DNA of 64,000 nucleotides, from assembly GCA_038820405.1 (NCBI GenBank), contig JAWAXL010000001.1, positions 1,208 to 65,207 of the forward strand, in the 5' to 3' direction. Both the position numbers and the translations under genes were made by a program. A model generated the notes under the pieces. The model was given only the letters and a program-made list of their open reading frames with translations, searched no databases and was not told the DNA's origin. The first letter of the stretch is position 1, and every line of letters starts with the position of its first letter. This DNA is from Candidatus Bathyarchaeia archaeon (GTDB taxonomy: Archaea; Thermoproteota; Bathyarchaeia; Bathyarchaeales; DTEX01). This document shows positions 9,609 through 60,226 of this stretch, piece after piece.

Positions 9609-9791
9609 TCACTTTCCCTCGCAATCTAGTTAATTAGTAAAAAAAATCATCTTTAGCAAATTTAAAGTTTATCATCAGAAAATGATGGCAAATTTTATCA
9701 ATATATTTATTGAGTAAGATAGCGATAAAAGAATAGTTTTAGTGAAAATTATAAATAAATCTCTCTACAGTAGATTTTTTGGTGAAATGAA

Positions 9792-37918: not shown

Positions 37919-40900
37919 TTACTTGAGAAAGTCTGAGAGATTATACTGTCTAGCACCCTTCCCACTTTCAAACAGTGAATTTATCTCCTCCTTAATTAGA
38001 GATAGACGTTGGGCATAATACTCAAAAATACCATATTTTCTAACTAGGCGCCAAGCATCCTCCAAATATTTCTCAATAGTTCCCCTATGAACAGTTAGAG
38101 TCAGTTCGCCACCACATTCAGTGCAAACACCTTTAAGCGGCACGCGCCTAAATCGCCTATTGCACCTCTTACACCTAAAGCTTTGTGTTGCAAATGCCCT
38201 TAGATTTCCGGATATATCTCGAAGGAAGTGTGTGTTCAAAACAATCTCAGCTACAATGCGTGCATCAACGGCCTTAATCTTCTCTGCCAAGCCCAGCTGT
38301 GCATTTAGTTTATCAGTCATGCGCTTTAAAGTCTTATATACGCTTTCTCGGTTACAATTTTCAATGCTTGATGTTGGGACTGTAAACATTAGGCCTTTAA
38401 GGCGTAGCTCGGAATTAAGTCTATGCTTTACAGTATCAATAAGGTTCGATATGTCCCTAGCCTGAACTCTTTCAAAAGTTTTCCTATAGAACTCAAGGGG
38501 ATATCTACCTGCAACATCAAATTCATGTGCCTGTCTCTGAACCTCCTCTGGAACAACAGCGCGGATGATGAAGAGTGGTGTGTCCATTATCCCGCCTATC
38601 TGGTCTGGAATATACTCCTTAGAAAAGTTTAAGAGGGTATCTAAAGCCAGCACAATGCTATCCTCATCTCCATCACAGTCCCTACGTTTGGCTGAATGCC
38701 AGAAAGGATGTGCAAAACATACATTTAACCTGGTGAAGCCTATTATCCTGCCTAAAACCCCAGCGCATGTGTGCGGGGCTATCCCTATAATTATCTTGCC
38801 AATCAAATCTTGGGGTCTACTAACTCTATAATATGGTGGGAGCTCATATACTTTCTGAAGCAGTTCATCTATGAAGTTGGCAACGGCCACAAGATACTCA
38901 GCGCACTTCCATGGTATTATGACGTCCTGAACCTTAAGCTCACAGATCTGCTCTGGATCATTTAATGGATTACCTAAATAGTCATGAGTGTACCCTAGCT
39001 CCCGAAGTTTCTTAACCGAAATGCCTATTTCGGAGGGCTTAAAATGTGTTAGAGGTGCATTAGTCGTATCGAACCTTATTGTGCCATCTTTATAAACATA
39101 GAGGTTATACTTGGCTCTTAGAATACCTTTCTCAATTGGCTCTGGAATACGGAGTTTATTAGTTAGACCCTTAACTCCCTTAACCTCCTCAGGTCTAAAA
39201 CCAACTTTTTGGCAGGCTTCCTCAATTAAATCCTTAATGGATATTACCTGTGGGCAGAAGCTCCTTGTCTCAACATTGCATACAGGGCAAACATTTAGTG
39301 AGAGCTCTCTGCCACATTTTGGACAAATGAGTCTGAGATTTGTTTCCAAGCCGCATTCCGTACAGAGTCTTCTGAACGTTAGTTTTCGGCATTTTGAGCA
39401 AATTCTGCTGACTAGATCAACCCTAATGGTTCCCTTTTCATAAGCCTTCATTAGGTCTCTTCTGGCTCCACCGCTTAAACCAACTGGAAATAGAACGTGG
39501 ACTGGTGGCTTCATTTCACGCTCCTTAGCCTTTTCAGGCCGGCCAACCCTAGCGCCTATAAATGTTGGCGCCTTATCCTTAATGACGATTCCACTCAACG
39601 CCATTAGATTATCCAGGACTGACAAATCTTCAGAAATTATATGGTTCGAATTATATACCCCAAGAGAGAAGGCAAATGCGTGAGCATCGATCCCCTCAAT
39701 AACTATTTTATTATCATTAATTTTATGGGGAATGCATATCTCCTCAAGGGCTCCCTTCACGTTGAGATTAAGCGCTCCAGATACCTTGATTATAATATCC
39801 TCCTCATAAATTATGTCAGATGAGAGCAACCACTCTCTGATCATTTTAAGCTGTTTAACGTCAATATTAGACCAGAAGAAAGTGTATAAGGGGTGTAGTG
39901 GAATATTGAGCGCCTTACTCAATATTATAGCCTCCCGAACGCCCGGCTTATTATTAAATGGGTCTTCCATGAGAGCCCTTAGGAAAGAAGGGGAAAGACC
40001 AATCTTCGAGGCAGCCTCCTCAATGTTCCCATTGAACTCTTTCTTAATAGCTTCTCTAAGCTCCTCGGACCAAAACTCCTCAGTGTAGCTGGCTGGCAGA
40101 AGCTCCCTATTATTGTAAAGGAAGTCCCCAAAACTTATTAAAATATCTCCAAGAAAGAGGATCTTTTCAATATTTCTCTTCACAACCTCAATATTTTCAT
40201 AAGAAACTTTAACTACTGATCCGTCCCTCAGCTTAACGATCGGTGGTTCAATGTAATCCACTGGCATAACAATACCCGCTTTCCCAGGAGCTTCGATCTT
40301 AAGCTGCGTTCCACCAGCAAGAAAGTTCTGGAGGACTACCATTGTAAGCGGGTGAACCCCAAGCGCTGAGAGACCAGTATTTCTCGACCTACCATAGCGA
40401 AGTCTAAATCCACCCCTAGCCGAGGGGAAGCATAGTATAGGTCTTCCGGCGGGAACCTCCTCTATAAATCCAACTGAGGAAGCATTTGCCGCACCAGCCT
40501 TAATCTCCTTAAGCCAATCCCAGCCTTCAATCCCAAGATCCCTAACTACTGCTAGAACTTTAGCGGCTCTCCCAATAATCCCATCATTTACAACTCTAAG
40601 CGCTCCCCCTCTAACGCGGTTCGTCTCTATGCGTGGCAGATTCCTATATAACGTGACTTCAATCGGATCTGATGGAATTCCAGTAATCTCAACTGGAGTG
40701 TTCCTTAAAGCGAATCTAATCTGCTCATCAGAGACACTATATTGAAAGTTTCCAACCTCACGTTCATAGAGGCGAAGCTCCTCAATAAAACGCTCTATCT
40801 CCTCTTCAGTCGGCTTATACCTATCTAGGCGTAACAACTTACGGACAAAATCCGCGATTACTGGCGTGAGAGCTGCCTCTGTCCCCCCGGCTGATCGTAT

Positions 40901-41374
40901 TGGTCCGGCAAAATATACAGCCAGATATTTTGATCTATCAGCGTTCGTTTTTATCTTAATCTTAGCAATGCCCTCCGTATAAACAGCTACGGTTACGCCC
41001 TCAGTTAATATTGCGAGGGCCGCCCTAATTGCTAAATCTGCAGCCATCTCTATGTCCAAGTTGCCGAACTTTCCAAGAACGATCTCTTCAGCTATCTTAA
41101 AGGCAGCCCTCTCCTTCAATAATTCGGCTTTGGTTAACTTTTTTATTCTCCTCGCCAAGCCAGGCAATCCAATAAGGCTCTCGACTAGGCTGGCTAGGTC
41201 ACTTATTATATCTATTTCTGGATATGGTTTCGGATCAATCCCTTTAGCCCTAGCTTTTCTAGCAACATCATAGAGTTCTTCTAACGATCGAAACATCTCC
41301 ATAAAATACTTTTGGTATTCTCGGGCTACATTATTTGGAACTTCCATTAGATAATCCTCTGCTTTACTCGGCAT
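37919..41374 (-). CDS. dp2: DNA polymerase II (PolD) large subunit DP2
   Basis: 1151 aa. N-terminal YF..M...L..LY..A..ARAKGIDP pattern, multiple Zn-finger Cys clusters (CSKCRK..CTECG, CPKCG..CPVC, CKRCNRRF..CTECGG) and DGDEDS. Length is consistent with no intein. ATG 41347 is an alternative start. Confidence 0.95.
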   Translation of the reverse strand: MPSKAEDYLMEVPNNVAREYQKYFMEMFRSLEELYDVARKARAKGIDPKPYPEIDIISDLASLVESLIGLPGLARRIKKLTKAELLKERAAFKIAEEIVLGKFGNLDIEMAADLAIRAALAILTEGVTVAVYTEGIAKIKIKTNADRSKYLAVYFAGPIRSAGGTEAALTPVIADFVRKLLRLDRYKPTEEEIERFIEELRLYEREVGNFQYSVSDEQIRFALRNTPVEITGIPSDPIEVTLYRNLPRIETNRVRGGALRVVNDGIIGRAAKVLAVVRDLGIEGWDWLKEIKAGAANASSVGFIEEVPAGRPILCFPSARGGFRLRYGRSRNTGLSALGVHPLTMVVLQNFLAGGTQLKIEAPGKAGIVMPVDYIEPPIVKLRDGSVVKVSYENIEVVKRNIEKILFLGDILISFGDFLYNNRELLPASYTEEFWSEELREAIKKEFNGNIEEAASKIGLSPSFLRALMEDPFNNKPGVREAIILSKALNIPLHPLYTFFWSNIDVKQLKMIREWLLSSDIIYEEDIIIKVSGALNLNVKGALEEICIPHKINDNKIVIEGIDAHAFAFSLGVYNSNHIISEDLSVLDNLMALSGIVIKDKAPTFIGARVGRPEKAKEREMKPPVHVLFPVGLSGGARRDLMKAYEKGTIRVDLVSRICSKCRKLTFRRLCTECGLETNLRLICPKCGRELSLNVCPVCNVETRSFCPQVISIKDLIEEACQKVGFRPEEVKGVKGLTNKLRIPEPIEKGILRAKYNLYVYKDGTIRFDTTNAPLTHFKPSEIGISVKKLRELGYTHDYLGNPLNDPEQICELKVQDVIIPWKCAEYLVAVANFIDELLQKVYELPPYYRVSRPQDLIGKIIIGIAPHTCAGVLGRIIGFTRLNVCFAHPFWHSAKRRDCDGDEDSIVLALDTLLNFSKEYIPDQIGGIMDTPLFIIRAVVPEEVQRQAHEFDVAGRYPLEFYRKTFERVQARDISNLIDTVKHRLNSELRLKGLMFTVPTSSIENCNRESVYKTLKRMTDKLNAQLGLAEKIKAVDARIVAEIVLNTHFLRDISGNLRAFATQSFRCKRCNRRFRRVPLKGVCTECGGELTLTVHRGTIEKYLEDAWRLVRKYGIFEYYAQRLSLIKEEINSLFESGKGARQYNLSDFLK

Positions 41375-41675
41375 GAATCCTACAGAGAATAATTGTATTC
41401 CATTTTTCTATGGGATGACCCATAATCCTCTCATAAGTCCTCTTAGCGATCTCTTTTCTTTTCTCGACACATACTTTACATACATTATGTCTCATATCTG
41501 AGGGACCATCACATTGACCACAGTTTAGGAGTAAAGACTCGCCAAGCCCCCTAAGTGTAGTCCAAGCGTACTCACGCTCATCATACTCAGGCTCAAAGTC
41601 CGGCCAAATATCATATATATCTTCTTTACCTAGAACCTTCTTCAATGCCTCAAAATATCGCTCAAAGGAGGTCAA
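41364..41675 (-). CDS. small CxxC..CxxC Zn-ribbon protein, function unknown
   Basis: 103 aa containing NCGQCDG..x9..CKVC. A 4-nt overlap with the upstream GGGPS stop, and it overlaps or abuts the DP2 start. No family recognised. Confidence 0.5.
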   Translation of the reverse strand: MTSFERYFEALKKVLGKEDIYDIWPDFEPEYDEREYAWTTLRGLGESLLLNCGQCDGPSDMRHNVCKVCVEKRKEIAKRTYERIMGHPIEKWNTIILCRIHAE

Positions 41676-42460
41676 GGGCTGTCCACTCCTTTAAATTTAG
41701 TCTTCACCCCCTCTTTTATACCCATGATTACCTCATTAAGTTTGTTTCTAATATTCTCCATCTCCTCATCCTCAATTATTGTCCCGGTTACCACTATATC
41801 AGCGCCAGATTTCACAGCCTCTTTGGCCTGAAGACCATTTCTTATGCCTCCACCAACAATTAGCTTTATGGATATTGCATCCTTAACCATCCTAATCATA
41901 TGTGCAGGTACTGGGTGGCTAGCCCCTGATCCAGCCTCAAGATAAACAAATCTCATACCAAAGAATTCAGCGGCAAGTGCATGAGCAACGGCTAACCCAG
42001 GCTTATTATATGGAATTGGACAAGCTTTACCGATAACTCCTGTTGAGCCGCCCTCTCCAATAATTATATATCCAAGAGGAATTGTCTCTAAACCCAGTTT
42101 CTTGATTACAGGTGCGGCGAGAACTTGAGCTCCTGATATAAAGTATGGATCAGCTGAATTGAGAAGTGACATGAACCATATTGCATCAGCGTGCTCACTG
42201 ATAGCGGTTATGTTATTTGGAAATAATATGACTGGAACGCTCACATTCTCTTTAACATACTTAACAATCTTGTTAAACATCTCCTGGGATATTATTGTTG
42301 TTCCGCCAATCATTATTGCTGATGAACCTAGAGACTCGCTCTCACAAGATATTAAGGCTGCAGTTTCCGGAGTGACCTTCTCTGGATCGATAAGTGTTAT
42401 GTGGATTGCTCCCTCATTATTAATCCTATCCATCAAGTACCTCTCTACTTTACCAACCAT
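41672..42460 (-). CDS. geranylgeranylglyceryl phosphate synthase (PcrB/GGGPS family)
   Basis: 262 aa TIM-barrel with LIDPEK.., YLEAGSGA and LIVGGGIRNG..A..SGADIVVTG motifs. Confidence 0.88.
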   Translation of the reverse strand: MVGKVERYLMDRINNEGAIHITLIDPEKVTPETAALISCESESLGSSAIMIGGTTIISQEMFNKIVKYVKENVSVPVILFPNNITAISEHADAIWFMSLLNSADPYFISGAQVLAAPVIKKLGLETIPLGYIIIGEGGSTGVIGKACPIPYNKPGLAVAHALAAEFFGMRFVYLEAGSGASHPVPAHMIRMVKDAISIKLIVGGGIRNGLQAKEAVKSGADIVVTGTIIEDEEMENIRNKLNEVIMGIKEGVKTKFKGVDSP

Positions 42461-42479
42461 TATTCCATCCTCCTAACGA

Positions 42480-42722
42480 TTAAGTCCCATAAAATTCATC
42501 TATAAGTTGGCAGTACACGTCCACTTCTTTGAAATAAGGTTTTACCACCATTTCCTTGACGTAGCCACAATTCAGGTTACCGCAACGAACTGTCGCCTTC
42601 CTTTCATTATCCTCCTCAGTGATCTCAATCCTAATAGACTGTTGATTACATTTAGGACATAAGAAGACCTTGGGTATTCTCTTCTTTAGTACTTTTACTA
42701 CCTTTCTACGCTTCCTCCCCAT
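42480..42722 (-). CDS. elf1: transcription elongation factor Elf1 homolog (Zn ribbon)
   Basis: 80 aa. Basic N-terminus MGRKRRK.., then FLCPKCN..x17..CGNLNCG. This is the pattern of archaeal Elf1. Confidence 0.7.
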   Translation of the reverse strand: MGRKRRKVVKVLKKRIPKVFLCPKCNQQSIRIEITEEDNERKATVRCGNLNCGYVKEMVVKPYFKEVDVYCQLIDEFYGT

Positions 42723-42851
42723 TCCAGCATCACACCACTAGACAATTACATAGATAGCTACTTTTAGTTCTTAAAAATTTGGGGATGCTATGAAAAACTA
42801 AATATCTTTCTTTTCGTATACAAAGGTGTATCCAAAAGAGGGGAGAATATC

Positions 42852-43346
42852 TTGACAGAGCCCTCACTAAAAGAAGAAATACAAGTATGGTTAACAAGTC
42901 TCAATAAAGACCCAATTTTCAAAACGCTACTAAAAAACAGCAATTTAACTAAAATACAAGCAGAAACATTCTTAATAGACATTTTAGCAGAAAAAATAAC
43001 CAATAAAAAATTAGTTTATGAGGAGAAAGCAAAACTGAGGTCAATAAAATCTGGAGTGAGCCGCGGATCATTTAATAGAACACTAGCTCAGGCAAGAAGA
43101 AATATAATTAGATCCATTTACACAATAATATTGCTAGGTTACCTAGGAATACTAGATGACCCTCGCCTAGAACCCTATATCACAATAGCTAATAAAATCA
43201 AGGCCTATGCTGAAAAGTATAGGGAAATTTGGGAGATTAAAAGAATAGAGGAAGATCAAATAAAGGTGCTACAATCGCTTCAAAATGAGATAGAAAAAAG
43301 ATTGTTGTGCCTATCAAGGCCAAGTGTGCTCTCGGGAAAAATGTGA
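42852..43346 (+). CDS. putative HTH DNA-binding protein (Tfx/sigma-r4-like segment)
   Basis: 164 aa, with TTG start after AGGGGAG. LTKIQAETF.. and GVSRGSFNRTLAQARRNIIRSIYT resemble Tfx-type HTH. The helical C-terminus is not recognised. Confidence 0.4.
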   Translation: MTEPSLKEEIQVWLTSLNKDPIFKTLLKNSNLTKIQAETFLIDILAEKITNKKLVYEEKAKLRSIKSGVSRGSFNRTLAQARRNIIRSIYTIILLGYLGILDDPRLEPYITIANKIKAYAEKYREIWEIKRIEEDQIKVLQSLQNEIEKRLLCLSRPSVLSGKM

Positions 43347-43373
43347 CATCACTGTTACATCACGTGACATCAC
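43343..43373 (+). repeat. three tandem 10-11 bp GTGA-CA-TCAC sites
   Basis: GTGACATCAC t GTTACATCAC GTGACATCAC. The first copy overlaps the stop codon of 42852..43346. Each unit is an inverted half-site pair GTGA/TCAC. Confidence 0.7.
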
Positions 43374-43477
43374 GTTTAAACGATAGATCCATTGATGAGG
43401 GAACAATAATCCAAAACGTAAGGCATTTAAGCCTTAATTAACTGAAATATTGCTGTGATCACAAGTATGATTTGAAT

Positions 43478-43507
43478 GTGATGTGTGATGTGACAAGGTG
43501 ATATCAT
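43478..43507 (-). repeat. inverted set of GTGA-N2-TCAC-like sites over the SD/start of 43506..44171
   Basis: GTGATGT GTGATGTGAC aag GTGATATCAT, overlapping AAGGTGA and ATG 43506. A compressed GTGATCAC lies at 43455-43462. These are reverse-complement relatives of the 43343-43373 units. Confidence 0.6.
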
Positions 43508-44171
43508 GGATATTATATTGATGTTTATTTATGCGATTCTTTTCTCCATAACCTCAGCCTTTTTTCTCATCTATTTTAAGCGACTTAAAAGTATCAATCT
43601 TGAATATACGAGACTTAAAAGGGCATTTGAGGATATAATCTTCAGCTTTAATAAGGATCTCCAAAAGATAGAGGGGCAAATTCAGGAAATTTCAGGAAGA
43701 ATTAGTGCGGAGGGAGCAAGAGATGAAATGAGATCCTTATTTGACTATCTTAAAAGTAAATTGGATGAATTAATCGGATTTAAGGAAAGGGTCTCCGCCG
43801 AGATCGATAAACTATTGGCTAAATATAATGAGATTGAGAATAAAGTTGGGAATTTGAAAGTAATTGGAAATGAAAGAAAATTAAGATTCTATGATGATAG
43901 ATCGGAAGAATACCTCTTACCTAAATTAAAGGAGAATAAACCTCTTGCCCCCTTAACGGCTACTGAGTTAAGGGTTTTAGAGATCCTAGCAAGTGAAGGA
44001 GAGAAAACTGTTCCTGAAATAAAGGATAGAATTGGTCTCACAAGAGAGCATACAGCGCGGCTATTGAAGAGCTTATATGAAAGGGGATACGTGGAAAGGG
44101 TCTCTAATAGGATACCCTACGTATACCGTTTAGCTAGGGAAATGGATGAAATTATCAAGAAAAAGGAATAA
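43506..44171 (+). CDS. membrane-anchored coiled-coil protein with C-terminal winged-helix (MarR/TrmB-like) domain
   Basis: 221 aa. N-terminal TM IILMFIYAILFSITSAFFLIYF, a heptad-like middle, and C-terminal LTATELRVLEILASEGEKTVPEIKDRIGLTREHTARLLKSLYERGYVERV. Confidence 0.55.
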   Translation: MDIILMFIYAILFSITSAFFLIYFKRLKSINLEYTRLKRAFEDIIFSFNKDLQKIEGQIQEISGRISAEGARDEMRSLFDYLKSKLDELIGFKERVSAEIDKLLAKYNEIENKVGNLKVIGNERKLRFYDDRSEEYLLPKLKENKPLAPLTATELRVLEILASEGEKTVPEIKDRIGLTREHTARLLKSLYERGYVERVSNRIPYVYRLAREMDEIIKKKE

Positions 44172-44176
44172 CTCTT

Positions 44177-44587
44177 TTACAGAGACTTTATAATCTCTTT
44201 TAATTCCTGTGATGCTAACCTGAAGAAAACCTTACCTCCATTTTTAGTTTTAAGTAGCATGCCTCTCTTAGCAAGCCTAGAAAGGTATGTTGAGATAGCA
44301 CTTAAGCTGATTGGTTCATTAGTTTCCCTCTCATATACTTCTTGAACATCCTTTGCTGAGAACCATGTTACAGAAAAGCTTCTCTTGACAATAAGGAGAA
44401 TTTTATCCATCTTTGAAAGATCCCAAGAGTATTCGCTTGTTGGCTCTACAACAGGCATCCCACCGAGTAATTCAACAATATCGAATATTTTCTGAACCTT
44501 CTCCCTAGTAACCCTACCCTCAAAACCTATAACGTACTTGTTTCCAGACTCATCGTAAACCTCTACTTTCACCTTTCTAACAGGCAA
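44177..44587 (-). CDS. small protein with C-terminal winged-helix-like domain, adjacent to oriC
   Basis: 136 aa, TTG start after GGTGAAGG. The C-terminus ISLSAISTYLSRLAKRGMLLKTKNGGKVFFRLA is wHTH-like. The N-terminal domain is unrecognised. Confidence 0.45.
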   Translation of the reverse strand: MPVRKVKVEVYDESGNKYVIGFEGRVTREKVQKIFDIVELLGGMPVVEPTSEYSWDLSKMDKILLIVKRSFSVTWFSAKDVQEVYERETNEPISLSAISTYLSRLAKRGMLLKTKNGGKVFFRLASQELKEIIKSL

Positions 44588-44785
44588 CTAAACCTTCACC
44601 GCAATCTCCAGCAATTAAGAATTACACTTCACAAGTTATAAATTATTCGGTTAAATGCTATTCATAAAAAAAGAAAAAATAAAGTTATTTTCAGAATATA
44701 ACAAAAAATTTCAAAGATCTTAGTTAACAAAGTTAACATCAAAAGCGTTGATCCAAATGAAGAAAATAAAGAATTCCTTTTTCTT

Positions 44786-44812
44786 TTCCAGTGGAAACGG
44801 AGGGGTGAGTTC
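44786..44812 (+). repeat. ORB1 origin recognition box
   Basis: TTCCAGTGGAAACGGAGGGGTGAGTTC, a dyad plus GGGGT string resembling the archaeal ORB consensus. Confidence 0.8.
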
Positions 44813-44954
44813 TTAACAAAAAATTAAGTATAAAAAAATGTCTTAATTAAAAAATATGGAAGAAAACAGTTGTTTACATCTCCGGGTTAACAGATGTTCA
44901 CATAACAATTAACACGATTCTTCAGGATATCTTTGCGCTCTTAAGAATATCATC

Positions 44955-44984
44955 AGAGAGACCCCACCATTTCCATTGGAAAAT
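44955..44984 (-). repeat. ORB2 origin recognition box (inverted)
   Basis: The reverse complement reads ATTTTCCAATGGAAATGGTGGGGTCTCTCT, near-identical to ORB3. Confidence 0.8.
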
Positions 44985-45039
44985 AACTCTGCAGTTCCCC
45001 TCAATATGCTTGGAGGTAAAAATACATTTTTTGGCTTAT

Positions 45040-45180
45040 GTTAACTTTACTTATAAATTAAAATTTTTGAATTTGTTATACAAATTTTTGTATAAATGAT
45101 GTTAAATATTATTTTTTCTTCCAATAAATGGGAGACTGTTTTTCCAACATATAATGAAATATATCATAATCTTTAAAACT
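45040..45180. other. AT-rich duplex unwinding element with mini-ORB-like half sites
   Basis: TTATAAATTAAAATTTTTGAATTTGTTATACAAATTTTTGTATAAATGATGTTAAATATTATTTTTT, followed by TTCCAATAAATGGGAG (45119-45134) and TTTTCCAACAT (45140-45150). It lies between the inverted ORB2 and ORB3. Confidence 0.65.
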
Positions 45181-45181
45181 G

Positions 45182-45214
45182 TTTTCCAATGGAAATATAG
45201 GGGTGGGTCTCTCT
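45182..45214 (+). repeat. ORB3 origin recognition box
   Basis: TTTTCCAATGGAAATATAGGGGTGGGTCTCTCT. Confidence 0.8.
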
Positions 45215-45324
45215 TTCTTTAGGACTTTTTACTCTTTAATCTATTTTTTTATACGGGAGCCCTTAATTTTTAGCAAAACACTCCTTATTTTTGCTGACCG
45301 CTGAAGAGGGGTTAGCGAAAGAGT

Positions 45325-46560
45325 ATGAAGAAGACTGACATTCTAGATAATGTATTTGCTCATTTTCTTAAGGGCTCCAGAATATTTAGGAATAGAGAAG
45401 TTTTAAGACATGATTATGTTCCGGATTATCTTCCGCATAGAGAGGAAGAGATTCTTCGTTTGGGTGAGATTACCGCTCACACACTTAGGGGCTCGCCATG
45501 CTCTAACGTTTTTATTTATGGCAAAACTGGTACTGGAAAGACTGCTGTTACTAAATTCGTTTTAAATAAGATTGCCCAGAAGGCAAAGGAGATTAGATCT
45601 CCAGTTAGAGTATGCTTTGTAAACTGCCGTTTGGCTGGAACAGAATATAGAATCTTAGCATCTCTCTGTTCAAGCATTAATGAGAAGGTTCCCTTTACTG
45701 GGTTAGCTGTTGGGGAGCTTTTTGAGAGGTTCAGAAAAAGCCTTGAAAGTCAAGGAATAATTCTTCTTTCCGCATTGGATGAAATTGATGCGCTGGTTAA
45801 GATGCGCGGCGATACATTGTTATATGAGCTCACAAGAATAAATGAGAATTTGAGCAGAAGTAAGGTTTCAATTATAGGTATATCGAATGACCTAAAATTT
45901 AAGGAGTTTCTTGATCCAAGAGTTCTGAGTACACTAAGCGAGGAAGAGATGGTCTTTAAACCGTATACCGCTGAGGAGATTCAGGATATTTTAATGGAAA
46001 GGGCTAGGATGGCCTTTCATGATAATGTATTAGACGAGGGCGCCTTAAAGTTATGTGCAGCACTGGCTGCTGCCGAGCATGGTGATGCTAGAAGGGCTCT
46101 TGATCTCCTGAGAGTTGCTGGCGAGATAGCAGAGCGAAGAGGTGATAAAGAAATTTTAGAGGAACATATTCGTGAGGCTCAGAAGAGGATAGAGCATGAC
46201 AGGGTCTATGAGAGTATAAGGAGTTTGCCAACACACTCAAAAATAGTTCTTCTGAGCACCTATCTGCTCAGCAAATTTGATCCAGACCGATCAATGACTG
46301 GAGAAATTTATAATCTCTACTCAGAGATTTGTGATCAGCTTGGTATAGGAGCATTAACTCAGAGGAGGGTAAGTGAGCTAATAAATGAATTGGATGTTAT
46401 GGGGCTTTTAAACTCACGCATCGTGAGTCTTGGGAGGTATGGCCGAACAAAGAAGATAAGTCTAAGTATCCCGCGAAAAATCATCACGGAAGTTTTTTCT
46501 GAAGATGAAATATTGAAGAGCATGATGAATTATAAGCCTAGATTCCTGACCTCTAACTAG
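45325..46560 (+). CDS. cdc6: Orc1/Cdc6 replication initiator
   Basis: 411 aa. VPDYLPHREEE, Walker A YGKTGTGKT, Walker B LLSALDEID, sensor regions, and a C-terminal winged helix (RRVSELINELDVMGLL). Confidence 0.95.
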   Translation: MKKTDILDNVFAHFLKGSRIFRNREVLRHDYVPDYLPHREEEILRLGEITAHTLRGSPCSNVFIYGKTGTGKTAVTKFVLNKIAQKAKEIRSPVRVCFVNCRLAGTEYRILASLCSSINEKVPFTGLAVGELFERFRKSLESQGIILLSALDEIDALVKMRGDTLLYELTRINENLSRSKVSIIGISNDLKFKEFLDPRVLSTLSEEEMVFKPYTAEEIQDILMERARMAFHDNVLDEGALKLCAALAAAEHGDARRALDLLRVAGEIAERRGDKEILEEHIREAQKRIEHDRVYESIRSLPTHSKIVLLSTYLLSKFDPDRSMTGEIYNLYSEICDQLGIGALTQRRVSELINELDVMGLLNSRIVSLGRYGRTKKISLSIPRKIITEVFSEDEILKSMMNYKPRFLTSN

Positions 46561-46572
46561 CGTCTACTTTTA

Positions 46573-48099
46573 CTAAAGGGAAGTAAAGTTTATTGGGGTA
46601 ACCTCTAGAGTATTTAAGTTAATTATTGGTATTATGCCCGGGTTTGGTATATGTCCCATCTCCTTTTGATATTCTGTTTGTTCCTGAAATGCTCCCGAAT
46701 TGACTACGAGCACACCTCTGTAAATGCTATATTTCATTAAGTGTACGTGCCCTGCATGAAATATGTCTGGAACATGCTCTATGACTAAATGATCAATCTT
46801 TTCAGGGGCTATCATGGTTCTCATACCATAGGTTGGTGCTAAATGCCTACACTGTAAGAGAATCTTCATAGCTTCATCTGGCGATTGGAAGCTAATGTTC
46901 GGGATGGATGCTATAACATCATCTAGACTTCTTCCATGTGTTAGAAGAAAAGTTACATTATGTAGGCTTATAACTGATGGATCACCTAGCATATGAACGT
47001 TCCCCATCTTATAGAGGGGCTCGGCATAATCCTTAGGAATAGCTGGCTGAGGCAGGGCTCTCCTAGTTGCATCATGATTCCCGGGTATAATTATTATCTC
47101 AATATACTCGGGCACCTCCCTGAACAGATCTGCTGCAACATCATATTGTTTGTAAATATCTTTTATTTCAAGCTCCTCGTGTTGCTGTGGATATATTCCG
47201 ACACCATCAACGATATCTCCAGCCATAACTAAATACTTGACCCATCCAGCTATCTCCCTAAGGCGGTTATTACCAATCTCCCCCCTCAACCACGATAAAA
47301 ATTTCTTAAATACCTCTTTCATGAACATCTTGCTTCCAACATGTAGATCAGATAGTAGCGCCGCGTGAATTGGTATAAGGGCTCTCTTTGGTTTTCTCAT
47401 CGGCACTTCTGGCAATATTATATCCTTTACTATGAGGAAATTATCTTTCCCCTTTACAGCAATTATACAGAGAACTTGATCCAAAAGAATTTTTTGAGCT
47501 TTCGTATACACCTCACAGCTATCGGCTGGAACAAAAACTATTGCTTGATCCTCTAAATCTTCAACTTTGAAGAAGATTCCACGTTTTGTCTCACGTTTAT
47601 CCATAATTATGCAGATAATCTTTACATTGGAGTTTTCAGGGGCTTTCAAGGCATCTGCTATGGTGCCAGCATCCTTTATGTCTATTCGACTCTTCAATAT
47701 CTTGCTTATCTTTTTAAACCGGCTCCTAAAATATTCTACACAGTCATTGAGGGATCCCGTTGCACCGATCCTATTAGTCGGGTCACTTATAATCTTTATC
47801 TCGGGCTCAACTTCTTTTGCCCGGGGACTAAAAAATAATTTGCTAGTGATCCCATTAGTGGTTCCGGAAACCTCTAATAGACCATTTTTCTTAATCTTTT
47901 CCTCTATGATCTTTCGGGTTATAAACAGCGGTTTATTTGGGGATTTCTCCATTTCCTTAAGCATATGTTTAAGAAGAAAATCTAGGTTCTCTTGATTTGA
48001 TATAGCCTTTAAAAACTCAAATGCCTCCTTATCAACTTGATAACCAGCCTCGACGATTAAAGATATTGCCCTTTTAAGGTTTTCCTCACTCTCTGGCAT
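46573..48099 (-). CDS. dp1: DNA polymerase II (PolD) small subunit DP1
   Basis: 508 aa. OB region plus calcineurin-like phosphodiesterase motifs LSDLHVGS, AGDIVDG, PGNHD, GHVH. Confidence 0.93.
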   Translation of the reverse strand: MPESEENLKRAISLIVEAGYQVDKEAFEFLKAISNQENLDFLLKHMLKEMEKSPNKPLFITRKIIEEKIKKNGLLEVSGTTNGITSKLFFSPRAKEVEPEIKIISDPTNRIGATGSLNDCVEYFRSRFKKISKILKSRIDIKDAGTIADALKAPENSNVKIICIIMDKRETKRGIFFKVEDLEDQAIVFVPADSCEVYTKAQKILLDQVLCIIAVKGKDNFLIVKDIILPEVPMRKPKRALIPIHAALLSDLHVGSKMFMKEVFKKFLSWLRGEIGNNRLREIAGWVKYLVMAGDIVDGVGIYPQQHEELEIKDIYKQYDVAADLFREVPEYIEIIIIPGNHDATRRALPQPAIPKDYAEPLYKMGNVHMLGDPSVISLHNVTFLLTHGRSLDDVIASIPNISFQSPDEAMKILLQCRHLAPTYGMRTMIAPEKIDHLVIEHVPDIFHAGHVHLMKYSIYRGVLVVNSGAFQEQTEYQKEMGHIPNPGIIPIINLNTLEVTPINFTSL

Positions 48100-49280: not shown

Positions 49281-49577
49281 CTAGAATATCTCTTTTTCTC
49301 CAATTTTTCTAAGAACTTTCCCTCTAACTTTTATTGCTGGAACTTCCTCATTCTCGGGGCCTTTCTCAATAGTTATCCTCTTTAGGGTCTCGCCGCAAAT
49401 GCCTTGTGGAAGTAGGCGTCTGGTTATACACATTGCGTAATTGCAGTTTATAGGGTTGCATGGTTCCTCAGTTAATCGGCACCATGGATTTTTCCCACGG
49501 AATACTAGAAAGCCCTTTCCGCACTTAAATTTACCACATTTAGAAGAGCACTTTCTTACCCCAAACAATACAGACAC
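49281..49577 (-). CDS. small cysteine-rich protein, function unknown
   Basis: 98 aa with 10 Cys in the first 60 residues (CSSKCGKFKCGKG..WCRLTEEPCNPINCNYAMC..ICG) and a lysine-rich tail. No family assigned confidently. Confidence 0.4.
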   Translation of the reverse strand: MSVLFGVRKCSSKCGKFKCGKGFLVFRGKNPWCRLTEEPCNPINCNYAMCITRRLLPQGICGETLKRITIEKGPENEEVPAIKVRGKVLRKIGEKEIF

Positions 49578-49719: not shown

Positions 49720-50643
49720 TTAAAGACACTCTTTAACGATTAATTTAGCGAGTCTTACTTTATCTTCTAAGGTTCTCATTATAGTGTCAGTTAAGATAAC
49801 TCTTATTCCAAGACTCTCTATCTTTTCCTTTTCTCCCTTGTCTGCATAGTCTAAAACAAAGGTGTTTAAAAAATCCCTATATAAATATGCTGCCGAGTAT
49901 GCTGAGACTTCTAGCCCAAGCCCCCTCATAAGTTTGTCTGCAGGACCCTTTATTGGCGCTCCCGCCACTATTGGGCTTATCGCCACTTTAGAAGCCCTGC
50001 TGATTCTCAGGGCCTCCCTTAAACCCTTAATGGATAATATTGTGCCTATACTTACGATTGGATTACTTGGACAGATAATTATTAGTTTGCCGCCGAGTAT
50101 GGCTTCAATAACACCTTCAGCTGGTTTAGCGCTCTCAGCGCCTAGATACTTTACCCCAAGAACCTTATCCCTAGCACCCCTTTTAACAAGATATTCCTGG
50201 AAGTGCATTAATCCAGCATCAGTTTCGATCCAGGTCTCAAATCTATCGTCAGTCATCGGTATTATATTAGCCCTTACACCTAGGCTCTTACAGATTTCCT
50301 TTGTTGCTTGAGAAAGTTTTAGCCCCTTTTTTAGGAGGAGGGTTCTATGGATATGTGTTGCAAGGTCTCTGTCGCCTAAATTGAACCATATCTCGTAACC
50401 ATATCTCCGCAACATCTCTAGGCAATGGAAAGTATCGTTTTTTATACCCCAACCCTTCTCCTCATCAACTATGCCAGCTAGGGTGTAGGTTATTATGTCT
50501 AGGTCTGGTGAAATGTGCAGTCCATAGAGCTCTATGTCATCTCCTGTATTAACGATCACTGTTAACTTTTCCTCAGGGATCACCCTAACAAGCCCTGAGA
50601 GAAATTTTGCTGCGCCCACACCGCCAGCCAAAGCTGTTATCAT
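49720..50643 (-). CDS. cofD: 2-phospho-L-lactate (or EPPG) transferase CofD, F420 biosynthesis
   Basis: MITALAGGVGAAKFL..VIVNTGDD..HISPDLD is the CofD N-terminal signature. ATG 50643 follows GGGGAG and overlaps the upstream gene's TGA (ATGA). The track start 50658 is a TTG. Confidence 0.88.
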   Translation of the reverse strand: MITALAGGVGAAKFLSGLVRVIPEEKLTVIVNTGDDIELYGLHISPDLDIITYTLAGIVDEEKGWGIKNDTFHCLEMLRRYGYEIWFNLGDRDLATHIHRTLLLKKGLKLSQATKEICKSLGVRANIIPMTDDRFETWIETDAGLMHFQEYLVKRGARDKVLGVKYLGAESAKPAEGVIEAILGGKLIIICPSNPIVSIGTILSIKGLREALRISRASKVAISPIVAGAPIKGPADKLMRGLGLEVSAYSAAYLYRDFLNTFVLDYADKGEKEKIESLGIRVILTDTIMRTLEDKVRLAKLIVKECL

Positions 50644-51326
50644 AGACTGACTCCCCAATAATCTTTAAAGGCTATTTCTTTAAGTGGTTTTCTGGATGGC
50701 GGCTCGGGGTTCTCGGCTGGATAACCGACTGTTATTAGGGCTTGTGGCTCAATATCACGGGGCATCTTTAAAGTTTTCCTGACGGTTTCTTGACAGAATA
50801 GTGGTGCGCAGAACCAGCATGCGCCTAGCCCCTCGGCGTGAGCGACTAAAAGAATGTTCTGTATTGCGGCGGCTAGGCTCTGCGTCGCCATTAAATGCTC
50901 AAATCTCTGCCTCCTCCTATCAGGATACCTATGCATCTCCCTCATGGTTATCGCTGCCACTATCAGGATCGGTGCCTCTGAAAAGCGCCTAATGGAGTCC
51001 TCAGTCAGTCTTTTTGTCTCCTCTTGGGGGTGACCATCCCTCTCAAGATCTCTCAGCCAATCTGAGGCCATTGCCTCGGCAAGTTTTTTCTTAACGCTTG
51101 GATCAAATATTACTATGAAGCGCCATGGCTGGGCATTGTGGGCGGATGGAGCCCACCTCGCGGCATCAATTATTCTAAGGATGGCATCTTTCGGGATACC
51201 CCTTGGTAAATAGGATCTGATACTCCTTCTGCCCTCAATAATATCTCTCAAGAATGATGGCATGTTTTCACCATTTAATATGGGAATTGAGTGCTGAGAT
51301 AAATTTGTAATAAATTGATTACTCAT
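50640..51326 (-). CDS. nitroreductase-family flavoprotein (FbiB C-terminal-domain-like?)
   Basis: RRSIRSYLPRGIPKDAILRIIDAARWAPSAHNAQPWRFIVI is the classic nitroreductase fold N-terminus. Translationally coupled to cofD. ATG 51263 is a possible alternative start. Confidence 0.8.
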   Translation of the reverse strand: MSNQFITNLSQHSIPILNGENMPSFLRDIIEGRRSIRSYLPRGIPKDAILRIIDAARWAPSAHNAQPWRFIVIFDPSVKKKLAEAMASDWLRDLERDGHPQEETKRLTEDSIRRFSEAPILIVAAITMREMHRYPDRRRQRFEHLMATQSLAAAIQNILLVAHAEGLGACWFCAPLFCQETVRKTLKMPRDIEPQALITVGYPAENPEPPSRKPLKEIAFKDYWGVSL

Positions 51327-51383
51327 TTTTAAGTAGTTACTCTTAAATATCTAATTAGAAAATTAGAGGAAGGGTGATTAAAT

Positions 51384-51971
51384 ATGAGGACAAAGATGGT
51401 AGCATTTGTATTGATGATGGGTGCGCTTGGAAACGTGCTCTTCGCTATCACGTATTATGTGGGGCAGATAGCTCCAGGGGTTGCCATAGACTTCTCTTTA
51501 CTACCAGCTTATATAGCAGGTCTCTATGGGGGACCATTAATAGGCTTTATATCAGGCTTGCTAGTAGGTATTCTCCCCGGAATAATGTTTGGTCCGATGG
51601 GTATGTGCGGCTGGCTTGGTCTCATCGGCTTACCCATCGGAAAGAGTTTAACAGGCTTGACAGCTGGAATCCTATCAAGGGGCTTACATCTAAGAGAAAA
51701 CAAGAAGTCCTCTCTCCTCGCAATTCCAGCTGCACTTTTGGCCTACGTTCCAGAGGGAGTATTTACATATGCTTTCTTCAAATGGCTACTGCCTCTCTTG
51801 ATTGGAAGTGGAGGAGAAGTGATTTTCATTTATTATATATTACCGAAGGCTCTCGCGGAGATCGTTGTGATTAGCTTCTTCGTGGCTGCGTTACTTGGGA
51901 ATAAGGGCTTCAACGAGTTCTTAGGGGCTTTTATGGGCTCAGAGGATCTGAGAATCTCCCAAAGAGAATAA
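51384..51971 (+). CDS. polytopic membrane protein, ECF-transporter S-component-like
   Basis: 195 aa with 5-6 TM and a Gly-rich helix pattern reminiscent of ECF substrate-capture subunits. The assignment is weak. Confidence 0.4.
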   Translation: MRTKMVAFVLMMGALGNVLFAITYYVGQIAPGVAIDFSLLPAYIAGLYGGPLIGFISGLLVGILPGIMFGPMGMCGWLGLIGLPIGKSLTGLTAGILSRGLHLRENKKSSLLAIPAALLAYVPEGVFTYAFFKWLLPLLIGSGGEVIFIYYILPKALAEIVVISFFVAALLGNKGFNEFLGAFMGSEDLRISQRE

Positions 51972-52877
51972 CTTCCTAATTTTTTGTAACCACTCTGTTA
52001 TCTGCTTATCTAGTGGTTTTGTCTTCCGCCGCCGCATCCTAGGTTTAAGTGGGTATCCACCCACCGCTTTATAGGCTGCCTCCGCAAGCTTGTCAGCTTC
52101 CCCCTCCTTGAATTCGCGCCACATTGGATCATGCCTAAAATCTTGGGGATCAATCCACTTTGGGGTGAATTTATTGAGATCCTCCGGCTTCATGCAGATG
52201 CATACTATATTTAATTCTCTATGGAGGCTTAGTGGGCATGTGAAGATCCTTGCTGGGTCCATCTTGTTCTCCACTTTTATTTCGCCCTTTATGCAGAGTT
52301 CGATGAGGTTTTGGGTTAGCTTTGTGTTCACATATTCGACTATTGCGTATGCTATGTCTAGTGGGCTGTATTTTTCGAGTAGGTTTTCTGAGATGCTCCT
52401 CTCATTTATGTGTATGTGGCAGCCGTTTCCAGACCACTTGACATATATGGACTCCTTGATCCCCCAACCTCTTAAAAATCCTAGAATTTTTCCAGCAATT
52501 TGGATGGTGTCCCTCCATCTTAGGAGGCTGCTGTCGATGTCCCATGTGGGTGTGCAATAAATTATGTTCTCTTGGTTGTAGGGATCTAGCTGATCCTCGA
52601 TCCTCTTATAGATGTTGGCGGTGGCGTAAATGGATCTCATCGTCATACGACCACTTAACACCTTTAGATCCTCGGCATCCGCCATTTTTATCGGCTTGCC
52701 AGAAATATATCTCCTTAGAACTAGTTTTCCTGTGGGGCTTAGGCAGTGTACTGCAGCCCACCTTCCCCTACAGAAATCAATTATCTCCTTCTGGACGTCG
52801 CTGCGTGAGTAGTGCTCATGTATAATGCTCGTGAAATTTGTCTTGGCCATAGAATCCACTACCAGCTTATCCTTCAC
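51939..52877 (-). CDS. archaeo-eukaryotic primase (AEP) superfamily protein, PriS-like
   Basis: AEP catalytic motifs in order: motif I TPTWDIDSS (DxD), motif II KWSGNGCHIHI (sGxGxH), motif III KMDPARIFTCPLSLH. 312 aa with no Zn-knuckle insert. Confidence 0.55.
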   Translation of the reverse strand: MKDKLVVDSMAKTNFTSIIHEHYSRSDVQKEIIDFCRGRWAAVHCLSPTGKLVLRRYISGKPIKMADAEDLKVLSGRMTMRSIYATANIYKRIEDQLDPYNQENIIYCTPTWDIDSSLLRWRDTIQIAGKILGFLRGWGIKESIYVKWSGNGCHIHINERSISENLLEKYSPLDIAYAIVEYVNTKLTQNLIELCIKGEIKVENKMDPARIFTCPLSLHRELNIVCICMKPEDLNKFTPKWIDPQDFRHDPMWREFKEGEADKLAEAAYKAVGGYPLKPRMRRRKTKPLDKQITEWLQKIRKLFSLGDSQIL

Positions 52878-59311: not shown

Positions 59312-60226
59312 TTAACGGAGGTTACTGGGTAAATCGGTTAGTCTTGGAAATCCGTCCCTAGCTCCCATCTTTGTTAAGCATCTTGAGGCTACAAAGTTTC
59401 CTAGGATACCACAATCTCTTAGGCTTTTCCCCCTAAGAAGCCCATAAATAAATCCGGCGCAGAAAGCATCCCCTGCCCCAGTCGTATCAACAACCTCGGT
59501 CTTAAATGGCTCGATTAAATGGCTCTCTGATCCATCTGTAACATAGCAGCCTCTCTCCCCTAGCTTCACGGCAATAATTTTTACGCCCTCTCTTAAGATA
59601 ACTTTAACACCCCTCTCATAATTTTCCTCACCTGTTAAGAGTCGTAGCTCCTCCTCATTCGGTAGAAACACATAACTCCTCCTAATTATTGGCTTGAGGG
59701 CATCCAGTCCCCTCCGAGCATGTATTATTCCAGGATCAAATGTCACCTTAACACCCTTGGGAAGAACCTCTAGAAGCCTCCTCTGCGCCTCAAAGGGGGA
59801 TGAGCCGGCGAATGAAGTTAAATGTAGAATTCTAACACCTCTAACATAATCAACATTAATCTCATTAAACTCTAATGTATTGTTTACCCCTGGATCTAAA
59901 TATAATGCTCTATTACCCGTTTGATCAACGAAGCCTATAACTGCCCCGCTCTTACCCATCTTAGAGATTATTATCCCACTGACATCCACACCCTCATCTA
60001 TAAAGGATTTAATTAGGAGTCTCCCCTCCCTATCGTCCGCAACCTTACCAATATAGCCAACCCTAACGCCAAGCCTCGCCAAACCCACAGCAGTATTGGC
60101 AGCCGACCCGCCCGGCGACTCCCTGAAATCAAGTATTATGCTCTCCTCATCGGCTCCAGCCAACTTATCAACCCTATAGAGCTTATCCATGTTCAGGGCT
60201 CCAAAACAGACAACTTCTAGGCTCAT
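59312..60226 (-). CDS. PfkB-family sugar/nucleoside kinase
   Basis: N-terminal [15 protein letters not shown] and C-terminal [18 protein letters not shown] signatures. The ATG overlaps the Ftr-like stop (4 nt). Confidence 0.85.

What the first reader, a model, noticed from the sequence alone, without database searches (positions are those of the whole stretch)
49720..51326. cofD translationally coupled (ATGA) to a stand-alone nitroreductase-fold protein
The nitroreductase gene's TGA overlaps the cofD ATG. In actinobacteria the nitroreductase-like C-terminal domain of FbiB reduces dehydro-F420-0, which is made when CofD uses the PEP-derived EPPG. A free-standing homolog coupled to cofD in an archaeon could indicate the PEP/dehydro-F420 route rather than the classical archaeal 2-phospho-L-lactate route. 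It could alternatively be simply an F420- or FMN-dependent reductase.
Basis: inference. Interest (0 to 1): 0.45.

Follow-up and report, generated by a model that had tools for sequence, protein, structure and literature searches.

The report
Stand-alone dehydro-F420 reductase coupled to cofD
In this Bathyarchaeia genome a small flavin enzyme closely related to the known dehydro-F420 reductases overlaps the F420 gene cofD by four bases, which suggests the archaeon builds coenzyme F420 from phosphoenolpyruvate; this kind of enzyme and its occurrence in archaea are already published.

Summary
On the minus strand a nitroreductase-fold gene (50640-51263, or 51326 from the first ATG) ends in a TGA that overlaps the ATG of cofD (49720-50643) as ATGA. 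A GGGGAG Shine-Dalgarno-like motif lies 7 nt upstream of that ATG.

The nitroreductase (NTR) is closest to the FbiB C-terminal domain by sequence and by predicted fold. It is not close to BluB, NfsA or NfsB. It is 46% identical to the stand-alone NTR in the Thermomicrobium roseum cofD-cofC cluster.

The NTR-cofD adjacency recurs in 12 of 30 archaeal and 35 of 50 bacterial species-representative loci, often with the same 4-base overlap. Homologs also occur fused to CofC, CofD or CofE.

The best explanation is an FbiE-type, FMN-dependent dehydro-F420-0 reductase made together with CofD, implying a PEP-derived route. This is a new member of a known kind: Braga 2020 and the 2021 Grinter and Greening review already note archaeal FbiE homologs.

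Caveats:
- There is no biochemistry.
- The score is below the TIGR03553 cutoff.
- A related Bathyarchaeia NTR group is not linked to cofD.
- CofB is unidentified, so it cannot be tested.
- No other F420 biosynthesis gene lies in the window.

The parts
50640..51263 (-). Stand-alone nitroreductase-fold gene, FbiE-like (predicted FMN-dependent dehydro-F420-0 reductase). It is 207 aa from Met22. The longest ORF starts at 51326 (228 aa).
   Evidence: PF00881 at 129 bits. TIGR03553 at 142.5 bits and NF009810 at 153 bits, both best hits but below cutoff. 4xom at 1e-27. P0001 is 100% identical and 207 aa. AF2 pLDDT 97, with top Foldseek hits to FbiB C-terminal domain at TM 0.86-0.90. 46% identity to the T. 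roseum cluster NTR.
49720..50643 (-). cofD (FO phospho-lactyl/enolpyruvyl transferase), 307 aa
   Evidence: TIGR01819 at 347.2 bits against a cutoff of 257.45. PF01933 at 181.7 bits. PDB hits: M. mazei CofD 3c3d at 258 bits and M. smegmatis FbiA 6uvx at 208 bits.
50640..50643 (-). ATGA: the cofD start codon overlaps the NTR stop codon (translational coupling)
   Evidence: Read directly from the sequence. The same -4 junction is seen in L001, L003, L004, L006, L008, L010, L021, L051 and L053.
50651..50656 (-). Shine-Dalgarno-like GGGGAG, 7 nt upstream of the cofD ATG and inside the NTR coding sequence
   Evidence: Sequence. Its function is inferred.
51268..51272 (-). Shine-Dalgarno-like GGTGA upstream of the probable NTR start (ATG 51263)
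   Evidence: Sequence. Homolog lengths of about 207 aa. Function inferred.
51341..51350 (-). AT-rich TATA-box-like element (ATATTTAAGA) upstream of the operon. Tentative.
   Evidence: Sequence only. The 120-nt intergenic region is shared with the divergent gene at 51384. Not tested.

Best explanation
The two genes form a bicistronic operon of coenzyme F420 tail biosynthesis in a Bathyarchaeia archaeon.

CofD transfers the activated three-carbon unit from the CofC product onto the deazaflavin FO. If that unit comes from phosphoenolpyruvate (EPPG), the product is dehydro-F420-0. The upstream protein is a homodimeric, FMN-binding nitroreductase-fold enzyme of the FbiB-C-terminal/FbiE type. It would use FMNH2 to deliver a hydride to the enolpyruvyl methylene group and give F420-0, which a separate single-domain CofE then glutamylates.

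The ATGA overlap plus an internal Shine-Dalgarno motif would couple translation of the reductase and the transferase, so the unstable dehydro intermediate meets its reductase.

- **Shown:** gene identities, the overlap, the fold, the closest relatives, conserved synteny and the fusions.
- **Inferred:** the substrate (dehydro-F420-0), the reductant (FMNH2) and PEP as the physiological precursor.
For: **Family.** The best NCBIfam models are FbiB and the FbiB C-terminal domain (153 and 142.5 bits), against BluB 90.9 and NfsA 44. The best PDB sequence hit is 4xom. The best structural hits are 4xoq/4xoo/4xom, at TM 0.86-0.90.

**Validated-type relative.** The query is 46% identical over 173 aa to the NTR of the T. 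roseum megaplasmid cluster cofD-cofC-DMT-NTR. That is the organism in which stand-alone NTRs were shown to reduce DF420 (Braga 2020, as cited).

**Shared motifs.** The family motifs RRSxR, AP(S/A)xH, YPDxxRxxxE(H/R)xM and GLGxCW are shared with Mtb FbiB-C and T. roseum. M372 of the Mtb methylene pocket is conserved as M125. The C. difficile NTR 3gfa lacks YPD.

**Synteny.** Among 80 GTDB species-representative loci, the NTR lies directly upstream of cofD on the same strand in 12 of 30 archaeal and 35 of 50 bacterial loci. Three more archaeal loci have the pair divergent, 79-111 bp apart. Chloroflexota carry cofE-NTR-cofD-cofC(-LLHT). Close relatives add cofC (L006, L008, L010) or cofE plus FrhB-like plus LLHT (L012, L019, L020, L001).

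**Rosetta-stone fusions.** Homologs are fused as CofC-NTR (P0125, 49% identity), NTR-CofD (P0128, 46%) and CofE-NTR (P0148 and others).

**Other context.** CofE in relatives is single-domain at 252 aa, so it does not supply the reductase function. Ftr in the window (60223-61155) fits an organism that uses H4MPT and F420.
Against: - There is no enzymology for any archaeal member.
- The score is below the curated TIGR03553 cutoff (142.5 against 249.55).
- Two of the three Mtb residues named for dehydro-F420-0 docking are not conserved: P289 becomes Ala and R337 becomes Asp. The T. roseum enzyme has Gly at R337 and shares the query's SxRR two residues on.
- A Bathyarchaeia group of 50-60% identical NTRs (L005, L009, L011, L013-16, L018, L022-27, L031) has no cofD within 10 kb. 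Thirteen of these 15 loci carry the NTR in an LsrF-like aldolase / Tdh-like dehydrogenase / NTR operon, so family membership alone does not guarantee linkage to cofD.
- Cognate CofC/CofD pairs from the archaea tested so far prefer 2-PL.
- No cofC, cofE, cofG or cofH lies in the 64-kb window.
- The window's CofD is closer to M. mazei CofD than to FbiA, which is expected from phylogeny and is not diagnostic.
Confidence: 0.72

Rival explanations
1. The archaeon makes F420 mainly from 2-phospho-L-lactate, like methanogens. The NTR is a proofreading or repair reductase that rescues the dehydro-F420-0 formed when promiscuous CofC/CofD occasionally use PEP.
For: Archaeal CofC/CofD pairs tested so far prefer 2-PL, but M. 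jannaschii CofD shows relaxed specificity toward EPPG. The window's CofD is closer to M. mazei CofD (258 bits) than to FbiA (208 bits).
Against: Tight translational coupling, and fusions with CofC, CofD and CofE across phyla, suggest an obligatory pathway step rather than occasional repair. No source of 2-PL (CofB) is known. The enzyme chemistry would be identical, so this differs only in flux.
Confidence: 0.13
2. The NTR works with CofD but on a different substrate or in a different role. It might reduce EPPG to LPPG before transfer, act on FO or another flavin-like molecule, or serve as an F420/FMN-binding accessory needed for tail elongation.
For: P289 and R337 of the Mtb docking model are not conserved. 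The FbiB C-terminal domain was first reported only as needed for tail elongation. PNPOx(FDOR-like)-NTR fusions exist (P0141, P0156).
Against: The nearest relatives with assigned function (Mtb FbiB-C, and the NTR of the T. roseum F420 cluster) act on dehydro-F420-0. T. roseum also lacks R337.
Confidence: 0.1
3. It is a generic oxygen-insensitive nitroreductase or a BluB-type enzyme, and its position next to cofD is incidental.
For: The nitroreductase superfamily is large and promiscuous. A related Bathyarchaeia group is not next to cofD. NCBI annotates it only as 'nitroreductase family protein'.
Against: BluB scores 90.9 against a cutoff of 150, NfsA 44 against 223, and NfsB 29 against 227. BluB and 3gfa fall outside the ingroup in the tree. 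Adjacency occurs in 47 of 80 loci from unrelated phyla, and domain fusions exist. No cobalamin genes are nearby.
Confidence: 0.03

Closest known systems
FbiE / stand-alone NTR dehydro-F420 reductase of Thermomicrobia (Braga et al. 2020, AEM; named FbiE in Grinter and Greening 2021, PMC8498797)
   Same: Single-domain NTR protein of about 200 aa, encoded with cofD (and cofC in T. roseum). The query is 46% identical to the T. roseum cluster NTR WP_012643075 and shares the same SxRR, YPDxxR and CAPLFC motifs.
   Different: The host is archaeal (Bathyarchaeia). The gene order is NTR directly upstream of cofD with a 4-base overlap, whereas T. roseum has cofD-cofC-DMT-NTR. No cofC or cofE lies nearby in this window. 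Ala replaces the Pro at Mtb P289. I could not read Braga 2020, so I could not confirm that WP_012643075 is the exact protein assayed.
C-terminal domain of FbiB (Mycobacterium tuberculosis Rv3262; PDB 4XOM/4XOO/4XOQ; TIGR03553)
   Same: Same fold (TM 0.86-0.90) and the best sequence match in the PDB (1e-27). Shares the FMN-type RRSxR motif, M372 and the YPDxxRxxxEH motif.
   Different: The query is free-standing rather than fused to CofE. Identity is 32%. The score is below the curated cutoff. P289 and R337 are not conserved.
BluB (5,6-dimethylbenzimidazole synthase)
   Same: Nitroreductase-superfamily fold, and the second-best NCBIfam family (90.9 bits).
   Different: The score is below the cutoff of 150. 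The structural match is poorer (TM 0.74-0.78, rmsd 3.9). BluB is the outgroup in the tree. There is no cobalamin gene context.
Hypothetical 'CofX' of Bashiri et al. 2019
   Same: A separate dehydro-F420-0 reductase predicted for archaea and some bacteria. This gene fits that description for Bathyarchaeia.
   Different: Bashiri et al. searched only around archaeal cofE and found nothing convincing. Here the gene is linked to cofD. It does not explain methanogens: no Euryarchaeota appeared among the best 80 loci.

Membership tests
FbiE / FbiB-C-terminal-type dehydro-F420-0 reductase (NTR superfamily) | Nitroreductase fold with an FMN-binding N-terminal RRSxR motif | tested here: met
   PF00881 at 129 bits. 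R12, R13, S14 and R16 are conserved. AF2 pLDDT 97.1.
FbiE / FbiB-C-terminal-type dehydro-F420-0 reductase (NTR superfamily) | Closer to FbiB-C than to any other characterised NTR subfamily, by sequence and by structure | tested here: met
   NCBIfam ranking. 4xom is the top PDB hit by phmmer. 4xoq/4xoo/4xom are the top Foldseek hits at TM 0.86-0.90. BluB and 3gfa fall outside the ingroup.
FbiE / FbiB-C-terminal-type dehydro-F420-0 reductase (NTR superfamily) | Score above the curated TIGR03553 (FbiB C-terminal domain) cutoff | tested here: not met
   142.5 bits against a cutoff of 249.55. By its description, the model covers the C-terminal domain of the FbiB fusion protein.
FbiE / FbiB-C-terminal-type dehydro-F420-0 reductase (NTR superfamily) | Genetic linkage or fusion with F420 tail-biosynthesis genes (cofC, cofD, cofE) | tested here: met
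   ATGA overlap with cofD. Conserved adjacency in 47 of 80 loci, plus 3 divergent. CofC, CofD and CofE fusions.
FbiE / FbiB-C-terminal-type dehydro-F420-0 reductase (NTR superfamily) | Residues of the Mtb dehydro-F420-0 docking model (P289, R337, M372) | tested here: inconclusive
   M372 is conserved as Met. P289 becomes Ala and R337 becomes Asp. The T. roseum NTR has Gly at R337 and the same downstream RR as the query. The F420-contact residues from Bashiri 2016 could not be read.
FbiE / FbiB-C-terminal-type dehydro-F420-0 reductase (NTR superfamily) | FMNH2-dependent reduction of dehydro-F420-0 to F420-0 | not testable with these tools
   This requires an enzyme assay.
CofD (TIGR01819, LPPG/EPPG:FO transferase) | Full-length match above the equivalog cutoff | tested here: met
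   347.2 bits against 257.45, covering residues 2-303 of 307.
CofD (TIGR01819, LPPG/EPPG:FO transferase) | Preference for EPPG over LPPG | not testable with these tools
   No diagnostic residues are given in the papers read. Similarity to 3c3d (258 bits) exceeds that to 6uvx (208 bits), which is phylogenetic only.
BluB | Score above the TIGR02476 cutoff, with cobalamin gene context | tested here: not met
   90.9 bits against 150. No cob genes in the window.
NfsA/NfsB oxygen-insensitive nitroreductases | Score above the NF008033 / NF008275 cutoffs | tested here: not met
   44.3 against 223, and 29.1 against 227.

The most novel reading that the evidence does not exclude
The FbiE-like reductase and CofD form a dedicated two-enzyme module. 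They are translationally coupled here and physically fused in some bacteria, and they would hand the labile dehydro-F420-0 directly from transferase to reductase. The presence of this module in Bathyarchaeia, Nitrososphaerota-labelled, Brockarchaeota and Asgard genomes would mean that the PEP route is the native F420 pathway of non-euryarchaeal archaea. The module would then be the missing 'CofX', and the 2-phospho-L-lactate route would be a speciality of methanogen-type Euryarchaeota.
Probability: 0.4. Interest if true: 0.5.

Novelty: new member of a known kind. Interest (0 to 1): 0.35.

Why it matters
F420 biosynthesis in archaea is still unsettled. The kinase that would make 2-phospho-L-lactate has never been found, and a 2022 study re-established 2-PL as the likely archaeal precursor on the basis of a few euryarchaeal and uncultured enzymes.

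A cofD-coupled FbiE-type reductase in Bathyarchaeia and other TACK and Asgard genomes gives concrete candidate genes. With them one can test whether a large part of the archaeal domain instead uses the PEP/dehydro-F420 route. The natural NTR-CofD and CofC-NTR fusions could also be useful parts for heterologous F420 production.

The idea itself is already in the literature, so the gain is incremental.

Tried and rejected
**Papers and look-ups that failed**
- Braga 2020 (PMC7267189) and Bashiri 2016 (JBC) are not held. I could not confirm which T. roseum protein was assayed, nor obtain the full list of F420-contact residues.
- The look-up of encoding contigs with the window's purD, its thiolase-like gene and P0001 found no record. 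The 13.8 kb of the source contig outside the window, and the rest of the MAG, could not be searched for cofC, cofE, cofG or cofH.

**Tests that are not possible or not informative**
- Typing CofC or CofD for PEP against 2-PL by sequence was rejected. [quoted passage not shown]
- The CofB presence/absence test was rejected because the enzyme is unidentified.

**Leads that weakened**
- The ECF-S-like membrane gene next to the operon could have been a linked FO or flavin transporter. It is present only in the window, L004 and L010, and absent from the 83%-identical syntenic relatives L085 and L086.

**Phylogeny**
- In the first NJ tree (unbootstrapped) the query fell in a cofD-linked clade with a separate sister clade. 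With bootstrapping, only shallow groups are supported. The core of the unlinked group gets 100 and the L012/L019/L020 group gets 100. Deep nodes get under 50, so orthology against paralogy of the unlinked group is unresolved. The first bootstrap attempt timed out.
- The BluB and NfsA/NfsB readings were rejected on scores, structure and context.

Full report
**1. Observation.** The region 49720-51326 holds two minus-strand genes.

The upstream ORF runs from the ATG at 51326 to the TGA at 50642-50640. The identical database protein P0001 and nearly all of the homologs listed are 200-215 aa and begin at Met22. The likely start is therefore the ATG at 51263, which is preceded by GGTGA.

The downstream gene aligns to CofD models and orthologs from the ATG at 50643-50641, not from the TTG at 50658 that the ORF lister reports. 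The minus strand reads ...ttGGGGAGtcagtctATGAtaaca.... The stop and start codons thus overlap as ATGA, and a Shine-Dalgarno-like GGGGAG lies 7 nt upstream of the cofD start.

**2. Identity of the parts.** cofD is certain: TIGR01819 scores 347 bits against a cutoff of 257.

The upstream protein is a nitroreductase-superfamily member (PF00881, 129 bits). Its scores against the relevant reference sets are:

| Comparison | FbiB / FbiB C-terminal domain | Other families |
|---|---|---|
| NCBIfam | full FbiB model 153 bits, matching only its C-terminal part (positions 255-440); TIGR03553 142.5 bits | BluB 90.9; NfsA 44; NfsB 29 |
| PDB by sequence | 4xom, 1e-27 | 3gfa, 5e-21; BluB 2isj, 4e-14 |
| Foldseek on the AlphaFold model | 4xoq/4xoo/4xom, TM 0.86-0.90, rmsd 2.1-2.3 A | 3gfa, TM 0.77 (rmsd 4.5); BluB, TM 0.78 (rmsd 3.9) |

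The AlphaFold model was built from a 30-sequence alignment and is very confident (pLDDT 97.1, pTM 0.91). The protein scores below the curated TIGR03553 cutoff of 249.55. By its description that model covers the C-terminal domain of the FbiB fusion protein.

**3. Organism and window context.** P0001 is annotated as coming from a Candidatus Bathyarchaeia MAG.

The window carries housekeeping and replication genes: Cdc6/Orc1, PolD DP1 and DP2, PhoU, GAPDH, PGK, RNR and purD. It also carries Ftr, the formylmethanofuran:H4MPT formyltransferase. It contains no cofC, cofE, cofG or cofH.

Relatives at 83% identity are fully syntenic around the pair.

**4. Comparative evidence.**

*Close homologs.* Homologs at 60% identity in two metagenomic or MAG contigs show the same NTR-cofD pair with the same 4-base overlap. 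F420-related neighbours (FrhB-like, luciferase-like) sit beside them.

*Species-representative scan.* A profile scan of one genome per GTDB species returned 80 loci. tblastn with CofD, CofC and CofE gave these counts:

| Domain | Loci | NTR directly upstream of cofD, same strand | Other arrangement near cofD |
|---|---|---|---|
| Archaea | 30 | 12 | 3 divergent, 79-111 bp apart |
| Bacteria | 50 | 35 | 4 with cofD within 5 kb |

The 12 archaeal loci come from Bathyarchaeia, Thermoproteota, Promethearchaeota, Hermodarchaeota, Helarchaeota, Brockarchaeota, Calditenuaceae and Nitrososphaerota. The bacterial loci are mostly Chloroflexota with a cofE-NTR-cofD-cofC operon, often followed by a luciferase-like gene.

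*Fusions.* An exhaustive search of 1.84 billion cluster representatives found 118 relatives at E <= 1e-30. Among them are natural fusions: CofC-NTR (P0125), NTR-CofD (P0128), several CofE-NTR proteins of the FbiB type, and PNPOx-NTR.

Conserved adjacency in unrelated phyla, together with fusion to each of the three tail-biosynthesis enzymes, is strong evidence that this NTR family works in F420 tail biosynthesis.

**5. Link to the characterised enzymes.** The T. roseum megaplasmid encodes cofD-cofC-DMT transporter-NTR. The query is 46% identical to that NTR, against 32% to Mtb FbiB-C. According to the papers I could read, stand-alone NTRs of T. roseum and related Thermomicrobia reduce dehydro-F420, and the enzyme was named FbiE. 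I could not read Braga 2020 itself.

Bashiri 2019 names three residues in its docking model: P289 and M372 form the methylene pocket, and R337 bonds the carboxylate. The query compares as follows:
- M372 is conserved as Met.
- P289 is Ala.
- R337 is Asp. T. roseum has Gly at that position, and both proteins share an SxRR motif just after it.

The YPDxxRxxxE(H/R)xM and GLGxCW motifs are shared by the query, T. roseum and Mtb FbiB-C. YPD is absent from the C. difficile NTR 3gfa.

**6. Mechanism proposed.** CofC activates PEP to EPPG. CofD transfers the enolpyruvyl phosphate to FO, giving dehydro-F420-0. The FMN-bound NTR dimer reduces the methylene group with FMNH2 to give the (S)-lactyl group of F420-0. 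A single-domain CofE (252 aa in relatives) then adds glutamates.

Translational coupling would keep the reductase and the transferase co-produced. The source of FMNH2 is unknown. The PNPOx(FDOR-like)-NTR fusions and the neighbouring FrhB-like genes hint at F420H2 or ferredoxin-linked supply, but that is speculation.

**7. Caveats.**
- Fifteen of the 30 archaeal loci have no cofD within 10 kb: 14 Bathyarchaeia-type loci and one from Nezhaarchaeales. With L026, which is labelled Limnocylindrales (a bacterial order), the 14 form the unlinked group analysed.
- In 13 of those 15 loci the NTR instead follows an LsrF-like DhnA-family aldolase (NF006081, 366 bits) and a Tdh-like Zn-dehydrogenase at 25-45 bp spacing (408 bp in one locus, overlapping in another).
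- The core of that group has 100% bootstrap support. Deeper nodes, including monophyly of the cofD-linked Bathyarchaeia sequences, are unsupported. I cannot say whether the unlinked genes are paralogs with another function or relocated orthologs.
- CofC and CofD specificity cannot be read from sequence.
- CofB is unidentified.
- Tested cognate archaeal CofC/CofD pairs prefer 2-PL.

**8. Comparison with what is known, and novelty.** Bashiri 2019 searched only around archaeal cofE. They found no convincing NTR apart from the Lokiarchaeum FbiB-like fusion, and postulated a separate 'CofX'.

[quoted passage not shown] JGI already labels many close homologs 'F420 biosynthesis protein FbiB-like protein'.

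This locus is therefore a new, well-supported member of a known kind. The details I did not find in the papers I could read are the tight NTR-cofD coupling in Bathyarchaeia and the NTR-CofD and CofC-NTR fusions.

**9. Verdict.** It is of modest interest because it is already anticipated in the literature. The value lies in providing concrete archaeal genes to test the PEP route outside Euryarchaeota.

Noticed in passing
window 51384-51971 (+): A 195-aa multi-pass membrane protein with weak ECF-transporter S-component similarity (PF12822 at 25.5 bits, below cutoff). It is transcribed divergently from the NTR-cofD operon. Homologs lie directly upstream of the NTR in L004 (same strand) and L010 (divergent), but are absent from the 83%-identical syntenic relatives L085 and L086. 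A link to FO or flavin uptake is possible but weak.
   Followed up: partly
window 51939-52877 (-): A 312-aa ORF with no Pfam, NCBIfam or PDB sequence hit. It carries DIDSS and SGNGCHIH motifs that resemble the catalytic motifs of archaeo-eukaryotic primases (my reading of the sequence, not verified). Its counterpart is the gene directly upstream of the NTR in L085 and L086. Its 3' end overlaps the end of the ECF-like ORF by 33 bases.
   Followed up: partly
window 49281-49577 (-): A Cys-rich 98-aa ORF with no family hit lies downstream of cofD. Homologs (56-61% identity) lie next to the NTR-cofD pair in L007 and L008, and small ORFs occupy the same position in L085 and L086.
   Followed up: partly
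L009, L011, L013-L016, L018, L022-L024, L026, L027, L031 (about 8000-10600 in most): A well-supported group of Bathyarchaeia NTRs, about 50% identical to the query, sits in a conserved LsrF-like aldolase (NF006081, 366 bits) / Tdh-like Zn-dehydrogenase / NTR operon with a cupin on the opposite strand. No cofD lies within 10 kb. The function of this operon is unexplained.
   Followed up: partly
P0125, P0128, P0141, P0156: Domain fusions of the FbiE-like NTR other than the classical CofE-NTR (FbiB): CofC-NTR, NTR-CofD and PNPOx(FDOR-like)-NTR. The last may hint at the electron donor.
   Followed up: partly
L001 7895-11649; L003 1601-2659; L019 and L020 downstream of the NTR: FrhB/FpoF-like F420-binding iron-sulfur flavoproteins (NF006807, 266 bits) and luciferase-like F420-dependent oxidoreductases lie beside NTR-cofD in several Bathyarchaeia relatives. 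A luciferase-like gene also follows cofC in many Chloroflexota operons.
   Followed up: partly
L026 (DATHCJ010000005.1): The contig is labelled Candidatus Limnocylindrales (Chloroflexota), but its NTR and flanking genes group with the Bathyarchaeia unlinked clade. This may be a misbinned contig or a lateral transfer.
   Followed up: no
window 59312-61155 (-): Ftr (formylmethanofuran:H4MPT formyltransferase, 60223-61155) overlaps a PfkB-family kinase gene (59312-60226) by 4 bases. The pair is conserved in L085 and L086. This indicates H4MPT-dependent C1 metabolism in this lineage.
   Followed up: no
window 37919-48099: A cluster of replication genes: PolD large subunit DP2 (37919-41374), Orc1/Cdc6 (45325-46560) and PolD small subunit DP1 (46573-48099). 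The F420 gene pair may therefore lie near a replication origin.
   Followed up: no
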